From contig JBNKUM010000091.1 in assembly GCA_050298595.1 (NCBI GenBank), positions 1 to 44,453 on the forward strand: a stretch of DNA of 44,453 bases, given 5' to 3'. Below the pieces are notes generated by a model. The model did no database searches. It saw only the letters and a program-made list of their open reading frames with translations, and was not told the origin of the DNA. This DNA comes from Gammaproteobacteria bacterium (lineage in GTDB: Bacteria; Pseudomonadota; Gammaproteobacteria; GCA-001735895). A program made the position numbers and the translations under genes. Positions within the stretch are counted from its first letter, which is position 1. Each line of letters opens with the position of its first letter. Below are positions 3,401 to 30,899 of this stretch, one piece after another.

Positions 3401-6100
3401 CAGATCTGGAACCACATGATCGTCACCCACACAGGTAGGTGGTAGCAACTGTGCAGCCGCCAGGTAGTCGTCACCAAAATCGACATTCTTGGACTCTTCT
3501 TTCAGTGACTCATAGCCCGGAGGAGTGAAGCCCTGAACAATATAGTAACCGGCTTTCAGATACTCTTTGGAATCCTGACCTGTAGTCATGACACTGGCAA
3601 CAGGGTTACTTGGGAAAGCATAACCACCATCGAATACACCAGGACGCACCTGGTTCCAGTTACGCATGCTATCCATACAAAGGTTATCAGCCACCAGATC
3701 GCCCATCAGGTTTTTACCCTGACAGTTTTCAGGAGGCGTATCGTCCCAGCTGTCAGACCAGGTTACATCAACTGCGTCACCATAATCGAAGCTACCATTA
3801 CCATTACGGTCGATATCTTCTGGACCTTTAGCAGCAGGGTCGGCAAACCAGCCTAGCGGATAGTTATCAATGTCAGGTTCCTGAATACCGGCTACACCAT
3901 TTATATCGTCGGCAACTTCGTCGATATTGTCATCCTGATACAGCGCAAACTGCACACGAGGAATACCAGGCTCCCAGATTTCGGCAGCCGCAAAGCGAGG
4001 ATCATGCTCGGCACGGGTGATCGCATTGACTGCCACACCGCTGATACCGCCATTCTCATCAGCACCGTAAGTAGTCTTACCAAACTCAACGACCGACTTC
4101 TGACCCAGAAAGCCCTGCATACCCAAAGTCAGCGCAGGCCCTCTTAAAGTAAGAGAGTAACCATCGGTAGTACATTCTTTGGCATCAGGGTTGGTATCGC
4201 AATCTGGTAAAGCAATGGGATTACCATCCACATCCAGACCCGCATTCTGTGGTTGTGCAATAAAACCATTGGCCTGCAGATCGTTGTCAGGATTAACTGT
4301 ACTACCATCACCACCACCGTTATCAACGGTAATCGTTACACCAGTCGCCTTGAACTTGGCAAAGTCGGTTTCCAGAACCAGCCAGTGGAAGAATGGGAAC
4401 ACCTGCTCTAGAGGTGCAGCGCCTTCCACGTCAATCGCCATGCTCTGGTAGATACGACCATCACGCCAGCGAATATTGGTTGCAAATGAATCCGCATTTG
4501 CATTGCTTTCATTAGGATCCCTAATACCATCTTCATCTTCATCAATGAATACACTGGTGAACATCTTGTGGAACCAGTTGAAGATCGGGATTTCACCCAG
4601 CGCACAAATATTAGTGCCGTTAGCGCAATCAGCTGTATTGGGTGCACTACCGTTAGTGTTGGAAGCAACCAACTGAGTTAAAGCTGTTACCGTAACACCG
4701 TCACCCGCTGCATTTGGGGCGATAGAGAAAGGATGGTTTGCAATAACCGCATCCAGACCGTCATCGTAAATCGACAGGCTGTAGTCACCGGTTGGCAGAC
4801 CACCAATATCAAATGTTGAAGTATCGTCACAGGCACCGGAATAAATCGTCTTGCCTGCAATACCCAGGTTGACACCTACACGACAACCCGGGAATGGCGT
4901 GCCGTTGTTAAATGTGAAGTCTGGCGAACGTGACATGTGATTATCAACCACAGTACCTGTGATAGAAGCAGCGACACCCCCTGGTACTGGTTGCGCATAA
5001 CCAACACAGGGGTTCACGTCAGGATCAGTCACTTCAACAGTCTGTAACACACCATCAACTTCAACCTGAGTGGTCATGGAAATAGGGCTACCATCACCCC
5101 AGGTTCCCGCATTACAGTCGTATTCACGTACAAAACCGATGAATACGTGTGGCCCTGGAGGACCGAATTCTACAAAGTTCTGCGGCTCGTTGGCCTTAAC
5201 CCAGGCATCCACGACCTTCGTACCTTCTATCGTAGAGGTCTGGATCCAGCCCGCGCCAGCAGGAGGAACAACCTGAACACCATACTTTCCGGGTGGCAGG
5301 TTCTTGATCACCAGATAACCCTGATCATTCGGTACTAACTGAACCGTATTGGCTGGCAGTGCACCAGGAGTAATGATGGTACCGTTGGTTTGAGAGCCTG
5401 CAGGGAATGAGGCAACCGAACCATCAGCATTGTATTCGGTACCCAGAGGATTACCGAAAGCATCATAAGCGACACGGCCACCACCAGCACCGTATTGACC
5501 CGCAGGATCTTCCAGAATGATGTGGAAAGGCTGGAACTGACCGTCAACGATAGAACCGTTAAGGCCACGCTCGCCTACGTCGATGGCGCCATTGATCGGG
5601 CTATTATCCTCAAACACCTGGATACTGATCTGCGCAGTAGGGATAGGCGATGGATTGGTACGGACTTCGGCAGTCGCTCCGCTAGCTGTAACCGTTACCG
5701 GCTTACCACCTAACTGATACTGTCCATAGGGAAGCACTGAAACGAAGTAGTCACCTTCTGGCACATTCAGCGTAATACTATCTGCTGTAGTCTCACCAGA
5801 AAGACCAACACCGTTTGCATCTCTGGCAACCGGCGTATGACTCTTGTGGAAATTAAAAGACAGGCTCTTGTTTAATTCAGTGCCAGAAAGATCTTGCCAG
5901 ACATCAACCCCAGGAGTTGATTTATACATTGGGTCTTCCTCTACGATGTATCTAAAGCCCCCGGCAACATTTCCTGCGCCATCTTCGGTAGTAATGGTAA
6001 GCGACGCCGCGTGCACCACTCCTGAAAGGGCTGTCCCTAACAGGAAGGTAGCCACCGCGACCGGCTTGACCAACCTTTCATACATTAATGATTTACTCAT
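461..6100 (-). CDS. Giant secreted/surface protein: SdrD-B/prealbumin-like repeats, IPT/TIG-like domain, right-handed parallel beta-helix, choice-of-anchor-Q-like C-terminus
   Basis: ORF 461..6145; likely start ATG 6100 (GAGGAAAACCAG-ATG). Signal peptide ends VVHA. Motifs: FEDNSPINGAIDVGERGL, FIDEDEDGIRDPNE, IQDAIDIANRGDLILVAPGVYNE (beta-helix entry), GGGI/NNTIxxN repeats, DYHLTAAS..AIDGG...DQGSDE. Confidence 0.8.
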   Translation of the reverse strand: MSKSLMYERLVKPVAVATFLLGTALSGVVHAASLTITTEDGAGNVAGGFRYIVEEDPMYKSTPGVDVWQDLSGTELNKSLSFNFHKSHTPVARDANGVGLSGETTADSITLNVPEGDYFVSVLPYGQYQLGGKPVTVTASGATAEVRTNPSPIPTAQISIQVFEDNSPINGAIDVGERGLNGSIVDGQFQPFHIILEDPAGQYGAGGGRVAYDAFGNPLGTEYNADGSVASFPAGSQTNGTIITPGALPANTVQLVPNDQGYLVIKNLPPGKYGVQVVPPAGAGWIQTSTIEGTKVVDAWVKANEPQNFVEFGPPGPHVFIGFVREYDCNAGTWGDGSPISMTTQVEVDGVLQTVEVTDPDVNPCVGYAQPVPGGVAASITGTVVDNHMSRSPDFTFNNGTPFPGCRVGVNLGIAGKTIYSGACDDTSTFDIGGLPTGDYSLSIYDDGLDAVIANHPFSIAPNAAGDGVTVTALTQLVASNTNGSAPNTADCANGTNICALGEIPIFNWFHKMFTSVFIDEDEDGIRDPNESNANADSFATNIRWRDGRIYQSMAIDVEGAAPLEQVFPFFHWLVLETDFAKFKATGVTITVDNGGGDGSTVNPDNDLQANGFIAQPQNAGLDVDGNPIALPDCDTNPDAKECTTDGYSLTLRGPALTLGMQGFLGQKSVVEFGKTTYGADENGGISGVAVNAITRAEHDPRFAAAEIWEPGIPRVQFALYQDDNIDEVADDINGVAGIQEPDIDNYPLGWFADPAAKGPEDIDRNGNGSFDYGDAVDVTWSDSWDDTPPENCQGKNLMGDLVADNLCMDSMRNWNQVRPGVFDGGYAFPSNPVASVMTTGQDSKEYLKAGYYIVQGFTPPGYESLKEESKNVDFGDDYLAAAQLLPPTCVGDDHVVPDLLTFVTDADGNPIPGATIVSEGVTIPNPDYAAPFAGETRPLCDKKLVLLTDGKNAAADFHFFTEVPKASHVVGGILNDLANEFNPNAPTFGEKFSPPWLPVAFYDWKGHEVTRVYADQYGKYNAMLPSTYTANAASPSGFTPNMLTACMNDGGYIDHDNDPNTPAIIDPNYNPQYTQFCYTFQYMPGATTYLDTPVLQIAAFAGAGYQLDCEAGDATPMIAQVDGPNGLPGPYIADSTVADDAARTLTLHSVGLRDVLNPASNEFMQKFVTRDYGFGGAADNSATWGNVYLTDEAGNSEPLVISSWSDSIIEAVLPQNFAEGRFQLSVVNAAGTESPMGASVMVGPLEFNNSQVRTVYPSPVLTDTPIQDAIDIANRGDLILVAPGVYNEMVVMWKPVYLQGAGAFSTTINARPVPAEKTQIWKDETLAHVTNGDFDLLNGQENGPLLFDTEEGAGIMVASKAPGNTNTFNNGRKSSGIDGFTITGGMTGGGIFLNGYVNGLDISNNRVTGNEGTYGGGIRVGHYALLDNNAQYPDAGNDNLRIHHNQVIRNGAQNGTGGGIALYNGSTNYRITDNLICGNFAATDGAGIGHLGLSTGGRIEDNQIIFNQSFRQTPGFETDGGGILIAGMDAALGADSTFTEGSGHVTINRNLIQGNQAGAGNGSGIAIRRANGADIEANPSRAAGQGAWWVVRVSNNTIVNNVAGNAGAISMLDAAVVNIENNTIANNVSTATAGAAFAPGSPTQSTPQIAGIASFHHQTLDGLMDYASLNNRLNKPFGNPFLHSNILWQNQSNYFVLSNTGDITNSCAQNVNTQCNPSQLVPVAGYTDLGVVNAGVGETLDQLRWSTVSDATGYPAGWHLTDANPSFANDYLNGSAGMSPVQAEFQTIMVAPALDEGGNWIDARFAPLSINDVSTAADGVNGGNGGTVSGASDYHLTAASTGAIDGGNPNRNRPYGVDIDQEPGIANLVVDQGSDEVQ

Positions 6101-6483
6101 CTGGTTTTCCTCATAACATTCATCACTTGTAACGCCCAATTTCATAGTCAGGTAACATTTGATTGTTCAAATTCGGGCAAGCTACCCAAAAACCTTTTTT
6201 GATGAATGTGATAATAGGTATGTATGTAAATGGGAGATATACGTAGAACAGTGGCTTTGCTGCGACAATCTGCCGCATGTTTCATGAGGAATTAACGCGT
6301 ATGTAGGTAGAATTTTACGCAGTCAAAGGTGGATATAAACTCAGTGTATAATTTAAGTTTTTTATAGCAAATTTGTGAACCAGGTCCACTCTGGCCCATT
6401 CTTTTTCACGTAGTTTTCACGTTAAAGCCGTATTCTTAGTCTTATTTTGCTTATATATTCTGTATCTCCGGGGGGGGCTACAT

Positions 6484-18826: not shown

Positions 18827-18880
18827 TGTCATCCTATGCTTTACCTATCTTATATTAAATAGGTAAAGCATAGGATGACA
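18827..18880. repeat. Perfect 22-bp palindrome (REP-like)
   Basis: tgtcatcctatgctttacctat-N10-ataggtaaagcataggatgaca. Confidence 0.85.
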
Positions 18881-19028
18881 GGGATATTCTTAAGTAAGTG
18901 CCATTCGTATCTGCCCCAGTTATTCTAGAAGACAAACAACCAGGGCAAAACGAACCCTGAACATTTTACTTCCATGTTTCTCCATACTCTACGTGGCAGC
19001 TCTGGAAACACTCTATTACCGACTGAAA

Positions 19029-22000
19029 TTAAAATCCGCTACTACTGATACTATGTTCATGGCACGAACCATAACAATCTTTGTCAGTTGCTATGCCTCT
19101 GTGCCTTCTCTCACCCGTATCATAGTCACGGTCATGACAGCCTGCGCAGTAAGGCTTATAGCTTGTATTCGACCACTCACTATCTGGAATAGTTGCTGTA
19201 ATGGTGTTGCCATGACAGGCCGTACAGCTCAGGGCTCTGCGGTGATCGAGCGGATTGTATGGGCCACTACCGCCTAGCCCTGGGATTGACAAAGGATGAA
19301 CAAAAGTAGACGGTGACCAGGCGTTGGTGCTATGGCAAACGTCACACTCTTCGGTAGTTCCCAGGTGACCACTATTCATGTCGTCTGCATGACAGGAAGT
19401 ACAATTACCTGCCGTGCTGGCATCATGCACCCAGCTAGCACCGCTGAAGGTTGCTGTAGATTTATGGCATACGTTGCAATCCTGGTTCGTATCAACATGC
19501 GGAGGATCTGCATCCTGCTTGCTTTTTGCACCGACGGTGTTGCCGTCATGACAGGAATCACAGCGTGCATTCTGTACCGCAGGACTGCTGTGATCGACTG
19601 TCGCACCCACAAATGATCCAGTGTTATGACATGAGCCACAATCCTGGCTGGTCGAGACATGGCCAGCAGGTTTGCCTGTAGCAAAACCCGCGTCATGACA
19701 GGATGAACAGTTATCCTGTATGCCTACGTGGGCGAAGGTGGCAGGTGTAAAGCCGGTGGTCTGGTGACAGAAAGAGCAATCCTGATTGGTCGGCACGTGT
19801 CCCGGGGGAGGCGTCTTGCCTGGTGCAGTGACTCCGTCATGACAGGATGAACAGTTATCCTCTATGCCATTGTGGTCGAACTTCGCGCCACTGAAATCTT
19901 CGGTGTTATGACAGTCTGAGCAATCCTGAGTCGGTGCAATAGCAACATGCTCGGATGACATACCGGTGGCATAGCTGCCATCATGGCACGATGCACAGTT
20001 GTCGACTATGCCCTGGTGATTAAACACTGCCTCTGCAAAGGTAGCGCCGGCTTTATGACACAACACACAATCGTCCGTGGTAGGGATATGCGGTGTATCA
20101 GTTTTGGCGTCCATTCCAGTGGCATCGGTTCCATTGTGGCAGCTGTCGCAGCGATTACCGACTACAGGTGGCTTACCATGGTCGAGGAAGGCGTCTGAGA
20201 AACTATCGATGTTATGACAGGCTGAGCAATCTTCGTTGGTATTGCTGTGTACTACTGTGAGCGGTGCACCGATAGCACCAGCCGCTACATGATCATCGAT
20301 GCCGTCATGACAGGATTCGCAGTTATCCGTAATGCCCTTGTGGCTGAAAGTAGATTGTGTGAATGAAGAAACCGTGTGGCAGATGTAGCAATCCTGCGAT
20401 GTAGGCAGATGGCTCGCGCTCTTGACCTGACTTACGGCTGGCAGAAACTGATCAATATGGCAGCCTTCACAACCCGAGGTCAGGCTGTCGTGTACAGCAC
20501 TGCGAAAGATGGTGGAGGTAAAAGTGTCGGTAGAATCGTGACAAACGCTACACTCACCCAGTGCCGGGATATGGTTAACAGGTTTATCCATGGAAATACT
20601 ATTGCCATGGCAGGCACTACAGTTATTGGGGTCAATGCCGATATGATTATACAGAATGCCTGCAAAGCTGTTGAAGTTGGTAATATTGTGGCAGCTAGAG
20701 CAGTCTTCGTCGGTGGGCACATGATTATCCGGTTTGCCGGTGCTGATGCCACCGTCATGGCAAAGTTCGCAATTGTTGGTATCTATCCCCTCGTGATTGA
20801 ACGGAGTGGGGACAAAAGCGGTTGTATCATGACACACACCACAGTCGGCCGTAGTGGGTAAATGGTTAGGTCCCTTGCCCTTAGTGATGACATCATCATG
20901 GCATGCTGAGCAAGTCATCGCGTTCAGATAGCTGTCGGCATGGTTAAAGGTACCACTGTTAAAGTCGCCCGGTGAATGACAGGCATCACAGTCTTCAGTG
21001 GTCGGTAGATGATTCGATGACATGCCAGTAGCGCCATTGGTGCTGCCATCATGACAGGATACGCAGGTTCTGTTGGTCACCTCTGTCGAGTTGTGATCGA
21101 CATATGCCGGAGTGAACAGGTCAGTGGTATGACAGCTGCCACAATCCGAAGTGGTGACCACATGATTGCTCGTGGGCTTGGCTGGTGCATTGATACTGGT
21201 ACTTGAATTATGACAGGACTCACAGGTCTGTACGCCTGGGTCTACCAGACGGTGGTCGAAAAAACCGTCCATACTGAAGCTAACAATACTATGACAGTCA
21301 CGGCAATCCAGTAACGGATTAATGTCAGGATGCCCGACAATCGTACCGCTGGCAGTGACGCCATGACAGGAATCACAACGACTTTCGGTCACTATCGGTG
21401 CGGTATGATCTGGATACGCGCCGACGAAGCTGGTGGTATTATGACAGGATCCACACTCTGCGTCTGGGGCATGAGTATAGTTGGTATTGTCTGGACCCAT
21501 GGCGATACTGCCGTTGTGGCAACCAGCACATTGCCTGACGATTCCTTCATGATCGAAGCTGCCATCCGGGTTCAGGTTCAGGAAATGATCGGTGTTGTGA
21601 CACTCGTCGCACTCAGCATTAGTCTGGGTGTGAAATTCGGATTTTCCAATCGCCACAATATTGTTATGGCAAGAACTACAGGTCCCGAACACTTCGTTAT
21701 GATCGACAATGTCGATCAGCTTAAAACCTTCCGGTGTATGACAGGCTTCACACAGATCGCTGGTACCCGGGTGTGTAACTGACTTCCCCCTGGCAGTGCT
21801 GTCATCATGACAGGAATGACAGGTCCGACTGGTTACCTCGGGATCGGTATGATCGATTACGGCATCCTTGAAGCCCTGGGTATTGTGGCAACTGCCACAG
21901 TCCTGCATGGTAGAGACATGGTTACCCGGTTTGGCCAGGCTGATCACGCCATTGTGACAGGCCGCGCAGGTATTTTGCTCGAGATACAGCTGAGCATGGT

Positions 22001-25000
22001 TGAACACACCCGTGGTAAAGCTGCCTGGGGTATGACAGACCACACAATCCTCAGCGGTAGCCAGATGTCCCTGAGAGGGGGATGGCTTGCCAGTTGCGTT
22101 GTAACCATTGTGACAGGATCCACAGCGCACGCTTGTTACAGCAGGATCAGAATGATCAACAAAGGCATTCTTGAACTGCGTGGTGTTATGGCAGGAACCA
22201 CAATCCTGTTCAGTTGGTAAGTGTAACTCCGGTTTGCCGATGCTGATTTCGTCGTTGTGACAGCTGGAACAGGTATATTGGCTCAGATAATTGCTGGAAT
22301 GGCTGAATGTACCGGTCGCGAAGGTACCAGTGGTATGGCACACGGAGCAATCCTCGGTAGTAGGCAAATGACCTGTCGAGGGTTTGTCTTCGGCCCTGGC
22401 ACCATCGTGGCAGGACTGACAGTCGCTGGTAATGCCCTGATGATCAAAGTTACCACCTAAAAATGTGGCAGTACTGTGGCAGAAATGACAATCCAGTGTG
22501 GTTGACATGTGATTCGGCGACCTACCAGGCGCAATATCACCGTTGTGACAGGAGGCACAGTCATCCACTATTCCGGTGTGATTGTATCCGGCACCCAGGA
22601 ATGAGGTCGTTGTATGACATACCACGCAATCCTGATTAGTAGGTGCATGATCGGTTGGTTTGCCCAGTGCAAACACGTCGTTATGGCAGAAGCTGCATTT
22701 ATCAACTATGCCAGCATGGGTGAAGTTTGCAGGTTTAAAACCAGAAGTATAGTGGCAGACACTGCAATCCTGACTGGTAGGCAGATGCTCAGCATGCTTG
22801 CCCGCAGTGATGCTACCGTTATGACATGCTACGCAATCCCCGACGATGCCAGTATGATCATATTTAGCCCCGCTAAACGCCGAGGTGTTATGGCAGTTTG
22901 AGCAATCCTCGCTCACCGGCATATGATTATCTGACATGCCGCTGGCCGCTAGCCCATCGTGACAGGATGCACAGTTATTTACCACACCGTCATGACCAAA
23001 ATAGGCATTGGCAAAGGTACCAACCACATGACAGACCTGGCAATCTTCGCTGGTCGTGACGTGGTTGTTTGCGCTGGCTTTGCCAGTGGCGATCGCGCCA
23101 TCATGACAGCTGTCACAACGTTTACCCACCACATCGGTGCCAGAGTGATCTATCAAAGCAGGAGTGAACGCTTCGTTAGTAGTATTGTGGCAGATCCCGC
23201 AATCCTGTTCTGTCGGAACATGGTTGACTGATTTGCCGATTGCGCCGCTCGCGCTGTGATCACCATCGTGACAGGACACGCAGTTACCGGTAATGCCACT
23301 GTGATTAAAGTTCACTACAGGCTTGAATGCTGAGTTGGCATGACAGATGTTACAGTCCTGCGTGGTCGGCAAATGGGGTACAGGGTCATCCGTCGTCGGC
23401 TTGCCAGTCGCGTAACGGCTGTTATGGCAGCCTTCACAGCCCTTAGAAATATCAATGTGATAGGCCGCCAGGAAGCTTGACGATGCGAAGCCACCAGTAT
23501 TTGTACTGGTATGACAAACACTACAGTCCTCGGCTATTGGGATATGGTTGCTGGTCTTGCCCAGCGCGATGTTGCCATCGTGGCACAGGCTGCAGTTGTT
23601 GCTGTCTATACCCACATGGTCAAAGCTAGCTCCCGCAAAGCTGGAAAACCCGCTGCTATGGCAATCGATACAATCTCTGGAAGTGGGCAGGTGATTGCCT
23701 GACTTGCCCTTGCTGATTTGTCCATCATGACAGCTTTCACAGGATATTGTAATGCTGCTGTGATTGAAGGTGGCATCAGTAAAGTCGCTGGTCGTGTGGC
23801 ATACCGAGCATTGTTGCTCGGTTGGCAGGTGGTGGTCGATCTTGCCGACAGTGATGACTCCGTTATGGCAAGCACCGCAGCGGTTAACGTCGCGGCTGCT
23901 ATGGTCAAACACGCCACTGGAGAAGGTGCCAGGTGTGTGGCAAACCGTGCAATCCTCGCTGGTAACCGGCAGATGGTTAAATGGCATACCCACAGCCGTG
24001 TCACCATGACAGCTGTCACAGCGTTTACCTACTACGGCAGGGCCGCTGTGGTCGACAAAAGCGTCAGCAAAATCCGTTGTGTTATGACAGAAGGCGCAAT
24101 CGACGCCTGCTACATACGGATGGTTGATGGTATTAGCTAGCCCCGCCGCATTCACATCGTTATGACAGGAGGCACAGGGTTGGGATACCGAATCGATCAC
24201 GGCATGATCAAATATGCCACCGAGATCAAAGGTCTCTATGCTATGGCAGACATCGCATTCTAATGTAGTAACCACATGGATTGGTACGGCGCTAGCTTTA
24301 CCACTCGCATCGGTATCGTTATGACAGTTGCTGCAATTGGCCTTGAAATCAGAGTGATCCACAAAGGCAGGCATAAATGATTCAGTGCTATGGCAGTAAC
24401 CACATTGGGTTTCGGTAACCACATGGTCTTCATCCTTACCTATGGCGGTTTGACCATTGTGGCAACGACTACAGGTAGCGTTCGTCAGCTTGTTGTGGTC
24501 ATAGCTACCATCCGATTCCAGCTCAATAAACGACTGAGTGTTATGACATTCGTTGCATTCCAGCGTGGTAACTTCGTGGAACGCGGACTTGCCAACGGCC
24601 GCCGTGCCGTTGTGGCAGTCACTGCATTGCCCAAAGACTTCTTCATGATCAACGAAAGTGATAATAGAAAATCCCATCACGCTATGGCAGGTCTCACACA
24701 TATGGCTGGTCGCAGGGTGATTTGGAGATTGCATCGCTTCGGGGTTAAAGTTTTTCAGGTGACATTGTGCGCAGTCTGAAGGGAATGTGGGGTAATGATT
24801 AAATGAGCCGGTAGGCTTTCTGTTGCTGGGCTGTGTCGCGACCACATAGGATACTGCTCGGTCACTAGATATGCCTTCCACGCCGACCACCAGTTGTACC
24901 CGGTAATCACCTTCGATATCGGCTATAAAGCTCGGCGTGGCACTGAGTGGATCGATTAAAATGGCCTGGCTTTCTGCTGGCCTGGAAAGGAATGACCAGG

Positions 25001-25286
25001 CATAAGTCAGCGCAGAGCTGGATGAAGTGCTGGAGTGGCTGGCGCCATCCAACTGTACAAGTTCTCCCACTCGCACAGGGAGTATGTTGCCAACGCCGGC
25101 TTTGATCGCGATATAGTGTTCATCGATGGGTGTTGGCGGGGTGGTTCCATCGCCATTGTCCGTCCCGCCTTCGTTATTGCTGGCTGGGTCCGATGCACCA
25201 CCGCCACCACAGGCAGCGATAGAGACCATTAATAGGATAACAAATAGGTATTGAACCAGCCTGTTTTTTTTATTTAGTATAGCCAT
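19029..25286 (-). CDS. Giant lipoprotein multiheme c-type cytochrome (~77 hemes) with an N-terminal PKD/Ig-like domain
   Basis: ORF 19029..25334; probable start ATG 25286. Lipobox SIAA-C, Gly/Pro linker, PKD-like VGELVQLDG..LTYAWSF..PSFIADIEGDYRVQLVV, then 76 CxxCH plus a terminal CYGSCH (manual count). Confidence 0.95.
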   Translation of the reverse strand: MAILNKKNRLVQYLFVILLMVSIAACGGGGASDPASNNEGGTDNGDGTTPPTPIDEHYIAIKAGVGNILPVRVGELVQLDGASHSSTSSSSALTYAWSFLSRPAESQAILIDPLSATPSFIADIEGDYRVQLVVGVEGISSDRAVSYVVATQPSNRKPTGSFNHYPTFPSDCAQCHLKNFNPEAMQSPNHPATSHMCETCHSVMGFSIITFVDHEEVFGQCSDCHNGTAAVGKSAFHEVTTLECNECHNTQSFIELESDGSYDHNKLTNATCSRCHNGQTAIGKDEDHVVTETQCGYCHSTESFMPAFVDHSDFKANCSNCHNDTDASGKASAVPIHVVTTLECDVCHSIETFDLGGIFDHAVIDSVSQPCASCHNDVNAAGLANTINHPYVAGVDCAFCHNTTDFADAFVDHSGPAVVGKRCDSCHGDTAVGMPFNHLPVTSEDCTVCHTPGTFSSGVFDHSSRDVNRCGACHNGVITVGKIDHHLPTEQQCSVCHTTSDFTDATFNHSSITISCESCHDGQISKGKSGNHLPTSRDCIDCHSSGFSSFAGASFDHVGIDSNNCSLCHDGNIALGKTSNHIPIAEDCSVCHTSTNTGGFASSSFLAAYHIDISKGCEGCHNSRYATGKPTTDDPVPHLPTTQDCNICHANSAFKPVVNFNHSGITGNCVSCHDGDHSASGAIGKSVNHVPTEQDCGICHNTTNEAFTPALIDHSGTDVVGKRCDSCHDGAIATGKASANNHVTTSEDCQVCHVVGTFANAYFGHDGVVNNCASCHDGLAASGMSDNHMPVSEDCSNCHNTSAFSGAKYDHTGIVGDCVACHNGSITAGKHAEHLPTSQDCSVCHYTSGFKPANFTHAGIVDKCSFCHNDVFALGKPTDHAPTNQDCVVCHTTTSFLGAGYNHTGIVDDCASCHNGDIAPGRSPNHMSTTLDCHFCHSTATFLGGNFDHQGITSDCQSCHDGARAEDKPSTGHLPTTEDCSVCHTTGTFATGTFSHSSNYLSQYTCSSCHNDEISIGKPELHLPTEQDCGSCHNTTQFKNAFVDHSDPAVTSVRCGSCHNGYNATGKPSPSQGHLATAEDCVVCHTPGSFTTGVFNHAQLYLEQNTCAACHNGVISLAKPGNHVSTMQDCGSCHNTQGFKDAVIDHTDPEVTSRTCHSCHDDSTARGKSVTHPGTSDLCEACHTPEGFKLIDIVDHNEVFGTCSSCHNNIVAIGKSEFHTQTNAECDECHNTDHFLNLNPDGSFDHEGIVRQCAGCHNGSIAMGPDNTNYTHAPDAECGSCHNTTSFVGAYPDHTAPIVTESRCDSCHGVTASGTIVGHPDINPLLDCRDCHSIVSFSMDGFFDHRLVDPGVQTCESCHNSSTSINAPAKPTSNHVVTTSDCGSCHTTDLFTPAYVDHNSTEVTNRTCVSCHDGSTNGATGMSSNHLPTTEDCDACHSPGDFNSGTFNHADSYLNAMTCSACHDDVITKGKGPNHLPTTADCGVCHDTTAFVPTPFNHEGIDTNNCELCHDGGISTGKPDNHVPTDEDCSSCHNITNFNSFAGILYNHIGIDPNNCSACHGNSISMDKPVNHIPALGECSVCHDSTDTFTSTIFRSAVHDSLTSGCEGCHIDQFLPAVSQVKSASHLPTSQDCYICHTVSSFTQSTFSHKGITDNCESCHDGIDDHVAAGAIGAPLTVVHSNTNEDCSACHNIDSFSDAFLDHGKPPVVGNRCDSCHNGTDATGMDAKTDTPHIPTTDDCVLCHKAGATFAEAVFNHQGIVDNCASCHDGSYATGMSSEHVAIAPTQDCSDCHNTEDFSGAKFDHNGIEDNCSSCHDGVTAPGKTPPPGHVPTNQDCSFCHQTTGFTPATFAHVGIQDNCSSCHDAGFATGKPAGHVSTSQDCGSCHNTGSFVGATVDHSSPAVQNARCDSCHDGNTVGAKSKQDADPPHVDTNQDCNVCHKSTATFSGASWVHDASTAGNCTSCHADDMNSGHLGTTEECDVCHSTNAWSPSTFVHPLSIPGLGGSGPYNPLDHRRALSCTACHGNTITATIPDSEWSNTSYKPYCAGCHDRDYDTGERRHRGIATDKDCYGSCHEHSISSSGF

Positions 25287-25562
25287 TGTAAGATAAGCAA
25301 CCTTGCGTTTGAGTGAAATAAAGAGCCTGAGCACTTATTTCCTGTTTCGAATCTGTACAGCAACGGCAGCGGATGGTAATTACATTTCGTTTAAGAAACC
25401 ATACTACCTTTGGGGTAATGGTGGGACCGCCTATAGACTATCAGCAACGACTGCAATTGGCACCAGAGTCCTGCCTCTTCCGCAACACCCTCTTATTACC
25501 CAGAACACGTTCAACTGTGTTGTCACCTTTAGGGCCTCTGTTCTTTATGATCAGCCCATTCA

Positions 25563-26110
25563 GAAGATGCGCAGATAAATAAACCCATTGAAGGCGTAAT
25601 TGTTTTTGTTGATTGGCCGGTAAAATATGTACCATTTTTTGTGGGTGAAGTTGGCGGGCGTGTTAATGCGGTAGTAGCTTTTGAAGGAGTAACAGATGCA
25701 AAAGGTGTTATAAGATTTCCAGCATGGGGGCCGGAATACGCCGACTGGGATGTCAATATAGATCGTTCAGGGTCGATTATTCGAATATTTAAACAGGGCT
25801 ATAAATTCCTTGAGTTGAGGAATAATACGAACTTCATCGATCTTTCAAAAAGCCCTAATTATGATTCCTCATTACCCTCTGACTGGAATAATAAAGTAGT
25901 CAAGCTGTAACCGTTTAAGGGAGGGAATAAAGAGTATGCACATCATCTGATAAATTTCGAAGATTCTTTGTTTCTTTCTTCCGGGTAGCCCCTTGTTTGG
26001 CACATAGTGCCGTAAGAATGCTAAAGGAATTATACAGAATGCAAAAATATTTTAATTCGAAAAATATACAACACCATCTTTATACGGTTGCAAGGCCATG
26101 CGATGAATAA
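25563..26110 (+). pseudogene. Truncated gene for a carboxypeptidase-regulatory-like (prealbumin fold) exported protein
   Basis: EDAQINKPIEGVIVFVDW...EGVTDAKGVIRFPAWGP...IFKQGY...VVKL*PFKGGNKEYA. No start codon or signal peptide (in-frame TGA at 25548); internal TAA at 25908-25910. Confidence 0.45.
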
Positions 26111-26316: not shown

Positions 26317-26967
26317 CTAACGCCTGGCAATCAGTTTGTCGATACGTTCCAGGTCGTTTACAACGGCCCAGTCTCCACCCGCTTTATTGACGCGCTCCTG
26401 CCATTGATCCAGCCGCTTTAGATAATCACGCGGGTCGATATTATCGCTACGCAACTTGGTGACATTCAGTGCAACCACGTGGACGCCGGGAAGCGAAAGC
26501 GGAAAATTCCGTATGTGGCCCTTTTCCAAATCTTCTTCAAGATCAGAGAAGATAAGCACATATCGCTCACCCGCTCCGGTCTCGGTCAGGTATTCACTCG
26601 CCTGTAGAACGCCTCCGGTAATATCGGTATGCCGACTGCCATGTTTTGTCGCCTTCACAAAGTGCTCTATTGTCGCCTTGAAGGCGCGCTTCTGCTCGTT
26701 GGTAGTACTCGGACGCTCGTCAAACGTGGTGCTGGCGATGATATCCTTTTCGCTGAAACTGCCACTGTCGATACGCGCTATCGCAATCGAGTCTCCACTA
26801 TCCAGTGTTGCCAGCAGATAGTTGATTATCGTCTGTGCCTTGCTCATTTCTTCGGTATAGGTACCGGAGGTATCGAGTAGCAGAAACACTGCACGCGATT
26901 TGGACTGTGGCGAACTACAGCCCACCATGGTCATTAGCAGCATAATTAGCATTAGTTTTTTCATCAC
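26317..26967 (-). CDS. VWA-domain lipoprotein
   Basis: Lipobox MVG-C; MIDAS-like LLLDTSGT, TDITG, LIFSD; ATGA overlap with the upstream gene. Confidence 0.85.
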   Translation of the reverse strand: MMKKLMLIMLLMTMVGCSSPQSKSRAVFLLLDTSGTYTEEMSKAQTIINYLLATLDSGDSIAIARIDSGSFSEKDIIASTTFDERPSTTNEQKRAFKATIEHFVKATKHGSRHTDITGGVLQASEYLTETGAGERYVLIFSDLEEDLEKGHIRNFPLSLPGVHVVALNVTKLRSDNIDPRDYLKRLDQWQERVNKAGGDWAVVNDLERIDKLIARR

Positions 26968-28409
26968 TTTTCCTCCGCATACAGTTGCCTGCTTTCGCTG
27001 CCTTTTTGCTTTGCCTGTTTTGCCGGCTGATAACGGCTGACCCAGGCTTCGATGCCAAGTGGAAGCATAATGAATAAATCATACAAACTGATAAGGATCG
27101 AACTGATTTGACGCGCTACACCACCGATCAGTCGCGCGACAAAAGCTATTGCATGTAACACAGCCATAGCGAGTACTCCCAGCACGGTACGCAAGGAATG
27201 GATAAATGACTCCAGCGGGATCGCAACAAATGACAGTGCAAACGGCAGGATAAAGCCCATGATCATTTGACCGAGCGAAGGTATCCAGCGGAATTGCGCT
27301 TCGACTACACCGGTTCCAGCCAGTGACTGGGTCAGGGCTTCACGGTCCAGTGCCAGTAAATCGCGCATATAGGCGAGCGAAGCTTCCACGGTTGCCAGAA
27401 TGGCGAGTATGCTGAAGGTAATTACCAGCATGCGCTTGCGCATTTTATCATCCATCGATCCGATGATCGGAAACAGGTGGGTGATGCGCAGGGATTCCAT
27501 CAGGAATAATCCCATCGCAATCTCAACCATGATGATCACCAGCGCAGCGATATCCGAGGTACGCATAGGACCGATATAACTGGTACCGCCGACCATTTCC
27601 GACATGGGCATAGCGATTAACTGAAAGTTGATCAGTCCGCCTAATACCGCAATGATTAATACCAGCGAGGATATGAAGAACTGGGTCATGGAAGATGATG
27701 CCAGCGTGCGCGCGATGCTGTCTTCAGCATTACGAATTGCTTCATAGCTTTCCATCTGCTGATCGATTTGCGCAGAACGCTCATCCAGTCCATCTATCCT
27801 GTCTTTCACCTGGGTTAGTGATTGCCCCAGCTCACGCCACTGGGGCTGCATGCCACCTAATAGCTTGTGCCGCTCCAATGTCGACTTACGATAGGCTTTC
27901 TGTGTTTCCTTATGAGCTTTTTCCAGCGATGCACCGATATTGTCGAGAATATCGCAAACAGTAGCGTCACCGGTGCGTGGGATTGCAGCCACTGCATCCA
28001 CCGCATTCAACCAGCTAGGCGGTAGTGGTGGAGCATCGGTGGCAGACTGATAGTCTTCTTCGATTTTATCGATAGCATCACTTATCTGACGATGCAACGC
28101 CGGGTAACTGCTCAGATCTCGTGCCACCAGAGTATTCACGCGCTGGAATTCGCGTTCGATGGCGCGCTCGCAGGCCTCCTGACCCATTGCCAGTACCACT
28201 TCCTTGTTACGTCTTTGTAGACCTTGTTCCAGCTTACGTAAGGATGCTGCGAACAGACGGCAGGCAACATAGATTGTGCGTCCGGTAGATCGAAATAATG
28301 CATGGGCAGGGTTACGCGCCAGATAAGCTATAAAAACCAGAATTACCAGCCAGATAGCAGCTGACAGTCCTGGGGTGTCGGACCAGACCGACAGTATCTC
28401 TGTAAACAT
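26964..28409 (-). CDS. Multi-pass membrane protein with a long coiled-coil region
   Basis: N-terminal TM, ~200-aa helical soluble stretch, then 5-6 TM segments. Likely start ATG 28409 after a GAGGTG RBS. Confidence 0.8.
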   Translation of the reverse strand: MFTEILSVWSDTPGLSAAIWLVILVFIAYLARNPAHALFRSTGRTIYVACRLFAASLRKLEQGLQRRNKEVVLAMGQEACERAIEREFQRVNTLVARDLSSYPALHRQISDAIDKIEEDYQSATDAPPLPPSWLNAVDAVAAIPRTGDATVCDILDNIGASLEKAHKETQKAYRKSTLERHKLLGGMQPQWRELGQSLTQVKDRIDGLDERSAQIDQQMESYEAIRNAEDSIARTLASSSMTQFFISSLVLIIAVLGGLINFQLIAMPMSEMVGGTSYIGPMRTSDIAALVIIMVEIAMGLFLMESLRITHLFPIIGSMDDKMRKRMLVITFSILAILATVEASLAYMRDLLALDREALTQSLAGTGVVEAQFRWIPSLGQMIMGFILPFALSFVAIPLESFIHSLRTVLGVLAMAVLHAIAFVARLIGGVARQISSILISLYDLFIMLPLGIEAWVSRYQPAKQAKQKGSESRQLYAEEK

Positions 28410-28457
28410 GATAGTCACCTCTTAGTGTTGAATGTGACTGAAATATAAAAGGTGGCT

Positions 28458-28569: not shown

Positions 28570-29379
28570 ATGGCCTCGATTTTCTGGGTAGAAGACCAGT
28601 CTCACTGGATACAAAAATTTTCATCGATACTCGAACAGAGCGATTTCGATGGCCAGGCAAACCAGCTTGCTATCTTTAGATTTGCCGAAGCGGCGAAACA
28701 GCAGATTGCCCTCACAGACTCCCTGTCGCCCCCCGACGTGGCGCTACTCGACGCACGTATGAACGGTAATGATCAGGCTGGATTTTCAGTCTCCAGTGCA
28801 TTGCGCAAGAAATGGCCTGACATTCCCATCATTTATCTTTCAGAACATAGTGGAACCGATATCGAACGCGATGCACTGGAACAATTTGCTGCCGCCGATT
28901 TTATCGCCAAACATCAGAACAATGTTGAACAGGTTTTATGCTGGCGTATCAAGGCAGTACTCAGACAACGCTCACTCGGCAGCCAGACTTCTAAGAATAC
29001 TAAAGACCAGATCACTAGCGGAGATCTAACCATCGATTTAAATAGCTGGAATGTGTACTGGAAAAACGTACGCCTGATGAACCCGAATAATCTATTACGC
29101 CCACTGGCCCCGACACCAAGAAAAATACTACGTGAGCTGATTGACTGTTCACCGCGCCCACTGACATCGCTGCAGATTGCTGAACGCATAGAAGCGGATA
29201 GCGAGAAATTTTCTTATGCCAGTTACCGTCAACATATCAAAACCCTGCGCCGAGCTATCGATGCCGCCGAAGGAGGAGAAGGTCGCTTTATCGAACTCTG
29301 CAGCCAGGGGTCAGGTATCGTCACCTTTGGAGACGAAGGCGCATATTTCTGGAAACCACCCGCGAAGACCCCATCATGA
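28570..29379 (+). CDS. Response regulator (REC + OmpR-like winged helix)
   Basis: WVED, LLDARM (phospho-acceptor Asp), IIYLS, ADFIAK; C-terminal GDLTIDL...HIKTLRR. Confidence 0.88.
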   Translation: MASIFWVEDQSHWIQKFSSILEQSDFDGQANQLAIFRFAEAAKQQIALTDSLSPPDVALLDARMNGNDQAGFSVSSALRKKWPDIPIIYLSEHSGTDIERDALEQFAAADFIAKHQNNVEQVLCWRIKAVLRQRSLGSQTSKNTKDQITSGDLTIDLNSWNVYWKNVRLMNPNNLLRPLAPTPRKILRELIDCSPRPLTSLQIAERIEADSEKFSYASYRQHIKTLRRAIDAAEGGEGRFIELCSQGSGIVTFGDEGAYFWKPPAKTPS

Positions 29380-30899
29380 GTCGAACAGGAATCCCTTATC
29401 CGTGGATTAGTACGCTTGCTGCTTTATTAATCATCATCTGGCAGTTTGTTTTATCTAAGCCTGAATGGATTCAACCCTATGAATTACCAGAGTATTTTCT
29501 CAACACCGGATACCTGGTATCGGGATTTGCCGTATGGTTGCTACTAGTGACACTGGACATCTATCGCTACTTCAGGGGCTGGACCAGGTATAAGGCGAAG
29601 ATGGTAAAACATGAAGAACAGATCGCCGAGTTATTTGATTCCAGGCGTGAGCTCGGCACCCGAGTGCGCACCTATTCCGATCATGCCGACAAGCTGAAAT
29701 TATTCATCAGCGATAAGTTACTCGAATATATTGAATACGATGAAAAATTCCTGCACTTTAAGAATATCGCCTCCGAAGTCAGGCACAATGGCGTCATCAG
29801 TTACGACAAGGCACAAACGGCACTTAAAAATGCAGCCGCGCTATGCGCTGACCGGCTAGATGATCCCACACAGTCCAAACAGTTTGAACAAGCCGCCGAC
29901 AGCCTGCTATACCTTTGGGACCTGCTCGATATAGCGACCACCGACAATATCTCGCTGCATGTTGCCAACCGCATCTACGATAGCGAAGAATATTATTTTC
30001 AGTCGACGCTGAATAACAGCGACCCATCGACCCTGCCCTATGTACCGACATTTTCCCTGTTCAATGCACTGCAAAAAGCGATATTGCCCATCGTCGAAAA
30101 CCCCACAGAATTTAATCCCTTAAACCTGCTGACACTACCATTCGATTATTGCGACAAACGCCTGCAGCTACGGGTGGATAATGACAGTGACATGCTGGGT
30201 AATATCAATCATATGGTGCTGTTACTGGAAAACCTGTTAAACAACGCGCTGTATTATGCCGGACAGCAATCTTCGAAAAATCGCACGAATCAGGTTGCGA
30301 TCCTGCTCACAAAGCAACAGGGCGAAGCCGTGATCGAAGTGTATAACCCTGGACCAGCAATACAGGAAGAAGACCGCAAACGTATCTTCCAGCTGGGTTA
30401 TTCATCGCGGCGCATCCGCGACCACCATGGCAAAGGTCTGGGGCTATATTTTGTCAATGAAATCTGCAAAGGTTTCGAGGGAAGTATTGATTTTGAAAAC
30501 ATAGAAAATCAGGAGAATGGATTATCACTTCGCGTTCAGCTCAGCAATGGTGAGGTTGAAACACATTTTATTTCCATCATCGAAGAGAATGGCAAACCAC
30601 TGTGCCATATCGCACAAAGCAAAAAACCTGCGAAAAGCAAACTGGAGTGGTCGTTTGCCAGCCCGGTCAGTAGCGTGGAAATCAGTTCTCAGGCTGGTGC
30701 CGAACCGCAGCTAATTGATGACCTGCTCAGAGTGGGAAGCTTATCCAGGCCTGATACCAGCAACCCTCAACTCCCACGCTGGAAACTTGATATTACTAAC
30801 CGAAAAAGATCTGCAAAACTGGTATTTAAACCTGTCGATGTACGCGGGGTTTGCTTCAGACTAAAGCTACCAACAGCCCTTTCAAGACTTGAAATATAG
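29376..30899 (+). CDS. Atypical membrane sensor histidine kinase
   Basis: Two N-terminal TMs; N box ENLLNNALYY, G1 NPGPAI, F box IFQLGYS, G2 GKGLGLY; ATGA overlap with the regulator. Confidence 0.85.
   Translation: MSRTGIPYPWISTLAALLIIIWQFVLSKPEWIQPYELPEYFLNTGYLVSGFAVWLLLVTLDIYRYFRGWTRYKAKMVKHEEQIAELFDSRRELGTRVRTYSDHADKLKLFISDKLLEYIEYDEKFLHFKNIASEVRHNGVISYDKAQTALKNAAALCADRLDDPTQSKQFEQAADSLLYLWDLLDIATTDNISLHVANRIYDSEEYYFQSTLNNSDPSTLPYVPTFSLFNALQKAILPIVENPTEFNPLNLLTLPFDYCDKRLQLRVDNDSDMLGNINHMVLLLENLLNNALYYAGQQSSKNRTNQVAILLTKQQGEAVIEVYNPGPAIQEEDRKRIFQLGYSSRRIRDHHGKGLGLYFVNEICKGFEGSIDFENIENQENGLSLRVQLSNGEVETHFISIIEENGKPLCHIAQSKKPAKSKLEWSFASPVSSVEISSQAGAEPQLIDDLLRVGSLSRPDTSNPQLPRWKLDITNRKRSAKLVFKPVDVRGVCFRLKLPTALSRLEI

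What the first reader, a model, noticed from the sequence alone, without database searches (positions are those of the whole stretch)
19029..25286. A ~77-heme single-chain lipoprotein cytochrome in a gammaproteobacterium: candidate surface-anchored heme wire
Seen: lipobox, flexible linker and PKD/Ig-like domain, then 76 CxxCH + 1 CxxxCH in ~1,900 aa (about one heme per 25 aa). Spacers alternate strictly between 'xG..A.GK..xH.PT..D' and 'F....F[DN]H......', and each carries a His. Established: CxxCH binds heme c, and a spare His per heme supports bis-His ligation and electron transfer rather than catalysis; characterised Shewanella MtrA/MtrC have 10 hemes. Inference: an extended outer-membrane-anchored conduit for extracellular electron transfer or charge storage, very large for this class of organism.
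Basis: partly seen in the sequence, partly recalled or inferred. Interest (0 to 1): 0.92.

Follow-up and report, generated by a model that had tools for sequence, protein, structure and literature searches.

The report
Doubled 77-heme lipoprotein wire, PCC3-linked
This gene is real and encodes a lipid-anchored protein predicted to carry 77 hemes in a row; it is a double-length member of an untested family of "electron wire" proteins that almost always occurs with the PCC3 outer-membrane conduit and probably extends it beyond the cell surface.

Summary
Confirmed: a 2,085-aa ORF (19029-25286, minus strand) with lipobox, linker, PKD domain, 76 CxxCH plus one CxxxCH, and one spare His per heme. 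It is not an assembly artefact: two congeneric genomes carry 76- and 77-heme orthologues, and the genome has ccmA-I. The di-heme repeat is that of the PCC3 "extracellular" cytochrome (He et al. 2017), published with up to 85 hemes (63 in a gammaproteobacterium), so the size is no record. What I did not find in print is the lipid-anchored PKD form. It looks like a detachable fifth PCC3 component: 48 of 49 other genomes carrying it encode the PCC3 porin (background 50 of 399), four loci place it directly after the porin, and this genome has an intact PCC3 cluster elsewhere. The family is bimodal (29-39 versus 70-80 hemes); trees suggest about four separate doublings, this one joining two paralogues. 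Best reading (0.65): an MtrC-like surface extension of PCC3. Surface exposure, heme loading, shape and direction of flow are untested. This scan already reported the 37- and 39-heme paralogues of this genome and relatives elsewhere. New variant of a known kind; interest 0.52.

The parts
19029..25286 (-). Whole CDS: 2,085-aa lipoprotein c-type cytochrome, 77 heme-binding motifs
25209..25286 (-). Lipoprotein signal peptide, lipobox IAA-C26; Gly at +2 (outer-membrane sorting by the recalled E. coli +2 rule)
   Evidence: sequence; Cys-Gly/Ser/Asp lipobox starts across homologues
25116..25208 (-). Flexible G/D/N/T/P-rich tether, residues 27-57
   Evidence: sequence
24831..25115 (-). PKD/Ig-like domain, about residues 58-152
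   Evidence: conserved in 42 aligned sequences
21753..24773 (-). First heme array, hemes 1-41; His164 just upstream is invariant
   Evidence: groups with L040/L041/L042 first arrays in trees
19332..21752 (-). Second heme array, hemes 42-74, a copy of the unit starting at heme 2 (period 40); sister to the 37-heme paralogue on contig C74
   Evidence: 65% DNA identity to the C74 paralogue over 2.2 kb
19032..19331 (-). C-terminal three-heme cap ending in non-canonical CxxxCH; the last 272 nt are 86% identical to the C5 paralogue
18940..18960 (-). Terminator-like hairpin downstream of the stop; the class is not above chance (5 found, 5.1 expected)

Best explanation
The protein is exported by Sec, loaded with about 77 c hemes by Ccm, lipidated at Cys26, sorted to the outer membrane and displayed on the surface. 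Its di-heme repeats form one long bis-His heme chain, each heme taking its distal His from the spacer just upstream. It works as a detachable outer extension of the PCC3 conduit encoded on contig C62 (diheme-b inner-membrane protein, 21-heme periplasmic cytochrome, 14-heme cytochrome, porin), much as MtrC/OmcA extend MtrAB, with the 37- and 39-heme paralogues as shorter alternatives. It carries electrons between PCC3 and solid or distant partners over roughly 55-75 nm if straight (7-10 A per heme, recalled from OmcS and GSU1996). Shown: sequence anatomy, His budget, ccm genes, repeat homology, co-occurrence and gene linkage with PCC3. Inferred: heme loading, ligation pattern, surface exposure, contact with PCC3, linear shape. 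Direction of flow is a lean (about 0.55-0.6) towards outward, from NAD(P)H through the flavin/Fe-S protein conserved beside the PCC3 membrane protein.
For: ccmABCDEF, dsbE, ccmH-like and ccmI on C8; two gspD over cut-off. Same repeat as the Amphritea atlantica PCC3 cytochrome (L092, 64 motifs beside porin, IMP and 21-heme) and the 14-heme PCC3 protein of this genome. PCC3 porin in 48 of 49 other genomes with the lipoprotein against 50 of 399 class genomes. In that class sample all 5 genomes with a PKD+heme match are porin-positive and 0 of 349 porin-negative ones match. The gene directly follows the porin on the same strand in L048, L065, L070, L080. The porin-adjacent PCC3 cytochrome has at most 14 hemes in 26 of 39 lipoprotein-positive but 1 of 32 lipoprotein-negative genomes (medians 13 and 24). 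The C62 membrane protein has SGxxG and two WX3HX13H motifs, and a flavin/Fe-S oxidoreductase lies beside it in 46 of 54 loci. No MtrB/PioB porin over cut-off in the genome.
Against: No neighbour in this window is an electron-transfer partner, and the orthologues in G011 and G013 lie in different neighbourhoods. Only 9 of 52 loci show a PCC3 core gene nearby (many loci are short). About 90% of porin-positive genomes show no such lipoprotein (5 of 50, a floor), so it is accessory. Length complementarity fails for several long forms: G011 has 77 plus 43 hemes and the Sedimenticolaceae have 70 plus 41-49. A lipobox does not tell which face of the membrane the protein occupies. Models lacked hemes and do not establish shape (pTM 0.37-0.38). 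PCC3 itself is functionally unverified, and its extracellular cytochrome Slit_1448 was not detected in the ES-1 proteomes. The genome has other multiheme clusters (C26, C103) that could be partners. Kin are not independent, so the P values overstate.
Confidence: 0.65

Rival explanations
1. [quoted passage not shown]
For: Periplasm-facing is the default for Lol-sorted lipoproteins (recalled). Three paralogues hold 153 hemes in all. Doubling raises capacity regardless of reach. Hoover et al. raise the capacitor idea for PCC3 (passages).
Against: The repeat and cap are those of the PCC3 'extracellular' subunit, not of the quite different periplasmic triheme repeat. PKD domains matched here are extracellular-type folds. 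Short porin-adjacent cytochromes go with lipoprotein presence, which a periplasmic store would not predict.
Confidence: 0.18
2. It is a surface cytochrome that works independently of PCC3: fed by another conduit of the genome (C26 or C103 clusters), or mediating cell-to-cell or cell-to-host contact through its PKD domain. The PCC3 link then reflects shared ancestry and habitat.
For: Stand-alone gene, no synteny among orthologues; the genome is rich in other multiheme proteins; relatives include host-associated Ca. Thiodiazotropha.
Against: 48 of 49 co-occurrence across many record titles and operon-like placement after the porin in four loci; no match in 349 porin-negative genomes.
Confidence: 0.11
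3. The long form is a by-product of recombination among repeat-rich paralogues, only partly matured or rarely expressed, with no function beyond that of the 36-39-heme form.
For: Mosaic history: the halves come from different paralogue clades and the cap is shared with the C5 paralogue. Congeners G001, G004, G010, G012 show only 38-39-heme forms with this query.
Against: All 77 motifs and their His are intact; the long form is kept in three species at 40-44% identity with CxxCH masked and arose about four times.
Confidence: 0.06

Closest known systems
'Extracellular' multiheme cytochrome of PCC3 porin-cytochrome clusters (He et al. 2017, PMC5566968; Hoover et al. 2023, PMC10734462)
   Same: Same di-heme repeat and C-terminal cap, Thr/Ser/Ala/Gly-rich, 26.8 aa per heme (published median 26), variable and very high heme numbers (median 34; 63 in Amphritea; 85 in Agromonas). 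The Amphritea protein was retrieved by this query.
   Different: Lipobox, tether and PKD domain replace the Sec signal and the N-terminal FDHxxTGFPL segment; the gene is usually outside the four-gene cluster and occurs in addition to the cluster's own cytochrome; multiple paralogues; whole-array doubling.
Shewanella MtrC/OmcA surface decaheme lipoproteins
   Same: Lipid-anchored multiheme proteins with paralogues that extend a porin-cytochrome conduit (recalled; functional analogy).
   Different: 77 versus 10 hemes; TIGR03507 score 200 is below its 209 cut-off and is summed over CxxCH stretches; only a weak motif-level PDB hit to MtrC 9eov, E 1.6e-5; no MtrB in this genome.
Geobacter GSU1996 / c7-repeat 'nanowire' cytochromes and polymerised OmcS/OmcE/OmcZ filaments
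   Same: Chains of closely spaced bis-His hemes; the only Foldseek rows for the repeat model were GSU1996 and a c7 domain.
   Different: Those rows are not significant (E 0.59-8.5) and VIA-align found nothing at Z 2 or more; a di-heme rather than tri-heme unit; one polypeptide rather than a polymer.
Giant multiheme cytochromes of Desulfuromonadia and Methanoperedens
   Same: Comparable size: up to 87 motifs in Desulfuromonadia and a cited record of 113 (PMC11492766, passages).
   Different: Homology to these was not tested; different lineage and partner system.

Membership tests
PCC3 extracellular MHC | Very many hemes, 22-39 aa per heme, small-residue-rich repeats | tested here: met
   77 motifs, 26.8 aa per heme, S/T/G/D/A commonest apart from C and H (definition)
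PCC3 extracellular MHC | Sequence homology to published PCC3 extracellular MHCs | tested here: met
   Amphritea atlantica DSM 18887 locus L092, 40% identity over the heme part, E 1e-44 among candidates; shared cap with the C62 14-heme protein
PCC3 extracellular MHC | Gene lies in the IMP - periplasmic MHC - extracellular MHC - porin cluster | tested here: not met
   Stand-alone in this window; the cluster is on C62 with its own 14-heme gene. Four homologous loci have the lipoprotein as a fifth gene after the porin
PCC3 extracellular MHC | N-terminus as in cluster members (Sec signal, FDHxxTGFPLxGxH; pattern read from loci here) | tested here: not met
   Lipobox plus PKD instead
PCC3 system (genome level) | Porin, periplasmic MHC, extracellular MHC and IMP with SGXXG and two WX3HX13H | tested here: met
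   C62:16599-22395: 705-aa porin, 14-heme, 21-heme, IMP with all three motifs
MtrC/OmcA family | Decaheme, full-length match to TIGR03507, MtrAB partner | tested here: not met
c-type cytochrome | CxxCH motifs in an exported protein plus a maturation system | tested here: met
Surface-exposed electron conduit | Located on the outer face and transfers electrons to or from extracellular partners | not testable with these tools
   T2SS secretins present; no localisation or activity data
Linear heme wire | Continuous, elongated heme chain | tested here: inconclusive
   Heme-free model of 8 repeats is periodic, pLDDT 73.6, pTM 0.37, no fold match; Hoover et al. describe PCC3 models as long and mostly linear

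The most novel reading that the evidence does not exclude
PCC3 has an undescribed fifth, exchangeable component: PKD lipoprotein cytochromes that act as single-chain surface wires of genetically set length. Marine sulfur-oxidising and sediment gammaproteobacteria, including clam symbionts, have repeatedly doubled the ~36-40-heme unit to ~70-80 hemes, and this organism keeps 37-, 39- and 77-heme versions to tune its electrical reach to tens of nanometres without polymerising a filament, possibly discharging NAD(P)H-derived electrons onto minerals or partner cells. The di-heme repeat may be a heme-chain fold with no solved example.
Probability: 0.4. Interest if true: 0.75.

Novelty: new variant of a known kind. 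Interest (0 to 1): 0.52.

Why it matters
PCC3 is widespread (50 of 399 class genomes sampled) yet untested. A lipid-anchored partner that is almost never found without it gives a concrete, testable architecture for how these bacteria reach extracellular electron donors or acceptors. Natural 37-, 39- and 77-heme versions in one genome allow a direct test of why some cells build one long chain rather than polymerise small cytochromes, a question left open in PMC11492766 (passages). The largest solved single-chain multiheme cytochrome has 16 hemes, and this repeat matched no solved fold.

Tried and rejected
Assembly concatenation: rejected. Longest exact repeat within the gene is 27 nt and with paralogues 38 nt; contigs of run X3 tile 19110-25818 with short overlaps and one covers the junction of the halves, though no single piece spans the gene; orthologues of 76-77 hemes exist in two other species. 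Record size: rejected. MtrC, DmsE, HmcA or c7 membership: family hits are sums over CxxCH stretches; DmsE TIGR03508 passes its cut-off only that way, over 12 stretches. Intermolecular His ligation of the OmcS type: considered, not needed, since His counts balance within the chain and the tail His is not conserved. A conserved non-PCC3 neighbour: none in more than 7 of the 49 loci clustered. Single origin of the long form: not supported by two quick trees; the careful tree did not finish and no clade test was run. Strict length complementarity with the PCC3 cytochrome: a trend only. Expression: no RNA holder listed. Complex prediction with the PCC3 porin and 14-heme protein was not available, so docking is untested. 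Promoter and terminator scans were at chance level. He et al. Supplementary Table 4 gave only its legend; the supplements of Garber et al. and of the preprints were not seen and might list this family.
Full report
Observation. The minus strand holds one open frame from 19029 to 25334; the ATG at 25286 gives 2,085 aa. It has a lipobox (IAA-C26, then GGGG), a tether, a PKD/Ig domain at about residues 58-152, 76 CxxCH and a final CxxxCH. Shuffles give about one CxxCH (mean 1.06, maximum 5 in 200). Spacers 1-73 alternate strictly between two types, and self-similarity is high at even and negative at odd offsets (means 15.7 and -4.9). One correction: 75 of 76 spacers hold a His. The budget still closes if each heme takes the His just upstream: His164, invariant in 42 aligned sequences, 73 regular spacers, two His in spacer 74 and one in spacer 76 make 77. 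In 42 full-length homologues all 1,584 internal spacers hold a His and 1,491 exactly one; the cap pattern 2-0-1-0 is seen in 20 of 42, and 8 more show it shifted because their last motif is CX6CH. All-bis-His ligation is an inference from these counts.

Reality of the gene. The window is the whole contig C91 of a 5.49-Mb genome, 98.6% complete. The longest exact repeat inside the gene is 27 nt. Contigs of run X3 tile 19110-25818 with overlaps of 10-40 nt, one crossing the junction of the two halves; no piece spans the whole gene, and X3 is from the same study as the possible source runs. Congeners G011 and G013 have 77- and 76-heme orthologues in unrelated neighbourhoods. ccmABCDEF, dsbE, a ccmH-like gene and ccmI lie on C8. 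There are two gspD over cut-off, a dsrA, a RuBisCO large subunit and no MtrB/PioB over cut-off. A sulfur-oxidising autotroph is my inference; the dsrA type was not tested.

Family. The genome has two paralogues with the same anatomy (39 hemes on C5, 37 on C74) and an intact PCC3 cluster on C62: inner-membrane protein with SGxxG and two WX3HX13H, 21-heme periplasmic protein, 14-heme protein with the same repeat and cap, and a 705-aa porin. A search limited to proteins of 1,146-3,649 aa found 216 hits and listed 120; 97 of these have five or more motifs. They split into PKD lipoproteins, bimodal at 29-39 and 72-79 hemes with one at 51, and PKD-less forms with 41-129. Genome contigs added 70-, 70-, 70- and 80-heme PKD forms and the 64-motif Amphritea atlantica protein inside its PCC3 cluster, the protein He et al. 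cite with 63.

Link to PCC3. Of 78 loci returned (best 80 of 210 confirmed stretches), 52 are PKD-type and lie in 49 genomes. A PCC3 porin profile found 48 of those 49 (three only as contig-end fragments), against 50 of 399 genomes of the class drawn evenly at 80% completeness or more (one not scored, two candidates scored per genome, so a floor). The reverse search on the same sample matched 6 other genomes: 5 with PKD plus hemes, all porin-positive (one contributed to the profile; in G315 the proteins have only 10 and 14 hemes), and one PKD-only (at most 9 candidates scored per genome). Five lipoprotein-negative genomes with short PCC3 cytochromes were rescored in full and stayed negative. 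In L048, L065, L070 and L080 the lipoprotein gene directly follows the porin; in L048 and L065 the whole order periplasmic 21-heme, 9-heme, porin, lipoprotein is visible; 9 of 52 loci have a core gene nearby. The porin-adjacent cytochrome has at most 14 hemes in 26 of 39 lipoprotein-positive and 1 of 32 negative genomes (medians 13 and 24). I dropped 14 positive and 13 negative genomes that lacked a readable gene or were not fetched, among them two negatives with cut frames of at least 9 and 12 hemes; several values are lower bounds or sums across frame breaks, and the largest value per genome was used. Counter-examples are G011 (77 plus 43) and the Sedimenticolaceae (70 plus 41-49). Kin are not independent, so these are strong patterns, not corrected statistics.

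History of the long form. The strongest internal period is 40 hemes; other long forms have periods 36, 37 and 45. A quick IQ-TREE (69 rows, SH-aLRT only, careful search unfinished) and FastTree (41 rows) agree: both halves are sisters in the Sedimenticolaceae 70-heme clade (100), in P0003 (100) and in the 73-heme clade (99), while the halves of this protein and its two orthologues fall in different clades, the second half being sister to the C74 paralogue (99). I read this as about four separate doublings, this one by joining two paralogues. The cap is 86% identical in DNA to that of the C5 paralogue; as the orthologue L041 has this cap type and the C5 orthologues L054 and L057 do not, it was probably copied from this gene into C5. 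No clade test was run.

Structure. The PKD domain folds confidently; the heme region with 8 sequences does not. An 8-heme block with 55 sequences gave a periodic, nearly secondary-structure-free model (pLDDT 73.6, pTM 0.37) with no PDB match (Foldseek best E 0.59 to GSU1996; VIA-align none at Z 2 or more among 48,161 chains). A heme-free model cannot show that a fold is new. The ESM Atlas holds an automatically named 70-member cluster with this PKD plus cytochrome make-up (score 0.95).

Mechanism. Most likely (0.65) the protein is a surface-displayed, lipid-tethered bis-His heme chain that extends PCC3 as MtrC extends MtrAB. Rivals are a periplasmic capacitor (0.18), a PCC3-independent surface role (0.11) and a non-functional recombination product (0.06). 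A flavin/NAD(P)/Fe-S oxidoreductase sits beside the PCC3 membrane protein in 46 of 54 loci that contain that protein, out of 80 searched. With the ferric-reductase-like His motifs noted by He et al. (passage), this makes NAD(P)H-to-outside flow slightly more likely than uptake; the literature frames PCC3 as a candidate iron-oxidation route, unverified. The NAD(P)H-fed wording follows an earlier scan note (e1-6378605).

Literature seen. He et al. 2017 (PMC5566968): passages and the PCC3 section; four components, 'lipoprotein' 0 occurrences in the main text; Supplementary Table 4 gave only its legend. Hoover et al. 2023 (PMC10734462): passages; 10-35 hemes, no PKD, 'lipoprotein' only for LolD. 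Passages only: 10.1101/2025.02.27.639646, PMC12016527, 10.1101/2022.05.06.490989, PMC13322032, PMC11492766, 10.1101/2025.05.29.656830. Garber et al. 2024 (PMC11475568): main text parts 1-2 of 3; it does not describe this family in text, but its 76 unnamed families in unseen supplements may include it. Nine searches listed no paper on a PKD lipoprotein partner of PCC3; the library lacks most subscription journals. MtrC/OmcA biology, the Lol +2 rule and heme spacing are recalled.

Verdict. Real, and correctly seen, but not a record and not a new class: a double-length, lipid-anchored variant of the PCC3 extracellular cytochrome. This scan has already reported the two shorter paralogues and relatives in other genomes. 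The additions here are the measured dependence on PCC3, the operon evidence, the length trend and the repeated doubling. Novelty: new variant of a known kind. Interest 0.52.

Noticed in passing
L192 (G362:C17:44500-56300); P0002: PCC3-type cytochromes larger than the cited record of 113 motifs: a frame with at least 116 motifs beside a PCC3 porin (cut by the region fetched) and a 3,274-aa protein with 129.
   Followed up: no
L068, L074, L076: Ca. Thiodiazotropha and a related Sedimenticolaceae genome carry ~70-heme PKD lipoproteins, doubled separately, together with 41-49-heme PCC3 cytochromes; striking for bivalve symbionts.
   Followed up: partly
L004:12421-15785 (G000:C62:22420-25784): A divergently transcribed Fe-S/FAD/NAD(P) oxidoreductase and a Sel1/ankyrin protein accompany PCC3 in most loci (oxidoreductase in 46 of 54); they are not among the four components named in the He et al. 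section read.
   Followed up: partly
L004:6600-8726: The PCC3 porin carries N-terminal SPOR and TPR domains, suggesting peptidoglycan binding.
   Followed up: no
window 461-6145 (-): 1,894-aa secreted-looking acidic protein with a C-terminal beta-helix (PF13229) and Asp-rich motifs; no other family.
   Followed up: no
window 26317-28418 (-): Overlapping pair upstream: a 484-aa membrane/coiled-coil protein without a family over cut-off and a 216-aa lipoprotein with a weak vWA match, divergent from a two-component system at 28570-30899.
   Followed up: partly
window 18827-18880: 27-nt inverted repeat, 93% complementary, no loop; read contigs have loose ends here in three runs, as expected of a repeated or variable element.
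   Followed up: no
window 19029-25286: Runs X2 and X4 hold divergent alleles of the gene (about 10% different over several hundred bases), so strain variants co-exist; no indel in the gene except one low-depth contig of X5.
   Followed up: no
G000:C26:4202-23263 and C103:38666-51314: Two further large multiheme-cytochrome clusters in the genome (up to 20 and 14 motifs per protein), apparently already noted by this scan.
   Followed up: no
L033 and L034 (G001): G001 holds two PCC3 clusters, one with porin, IMP and oxidoreductase 100% identical to those of G000, suggesting mixed bins or recent transfer.
   Followed up: no
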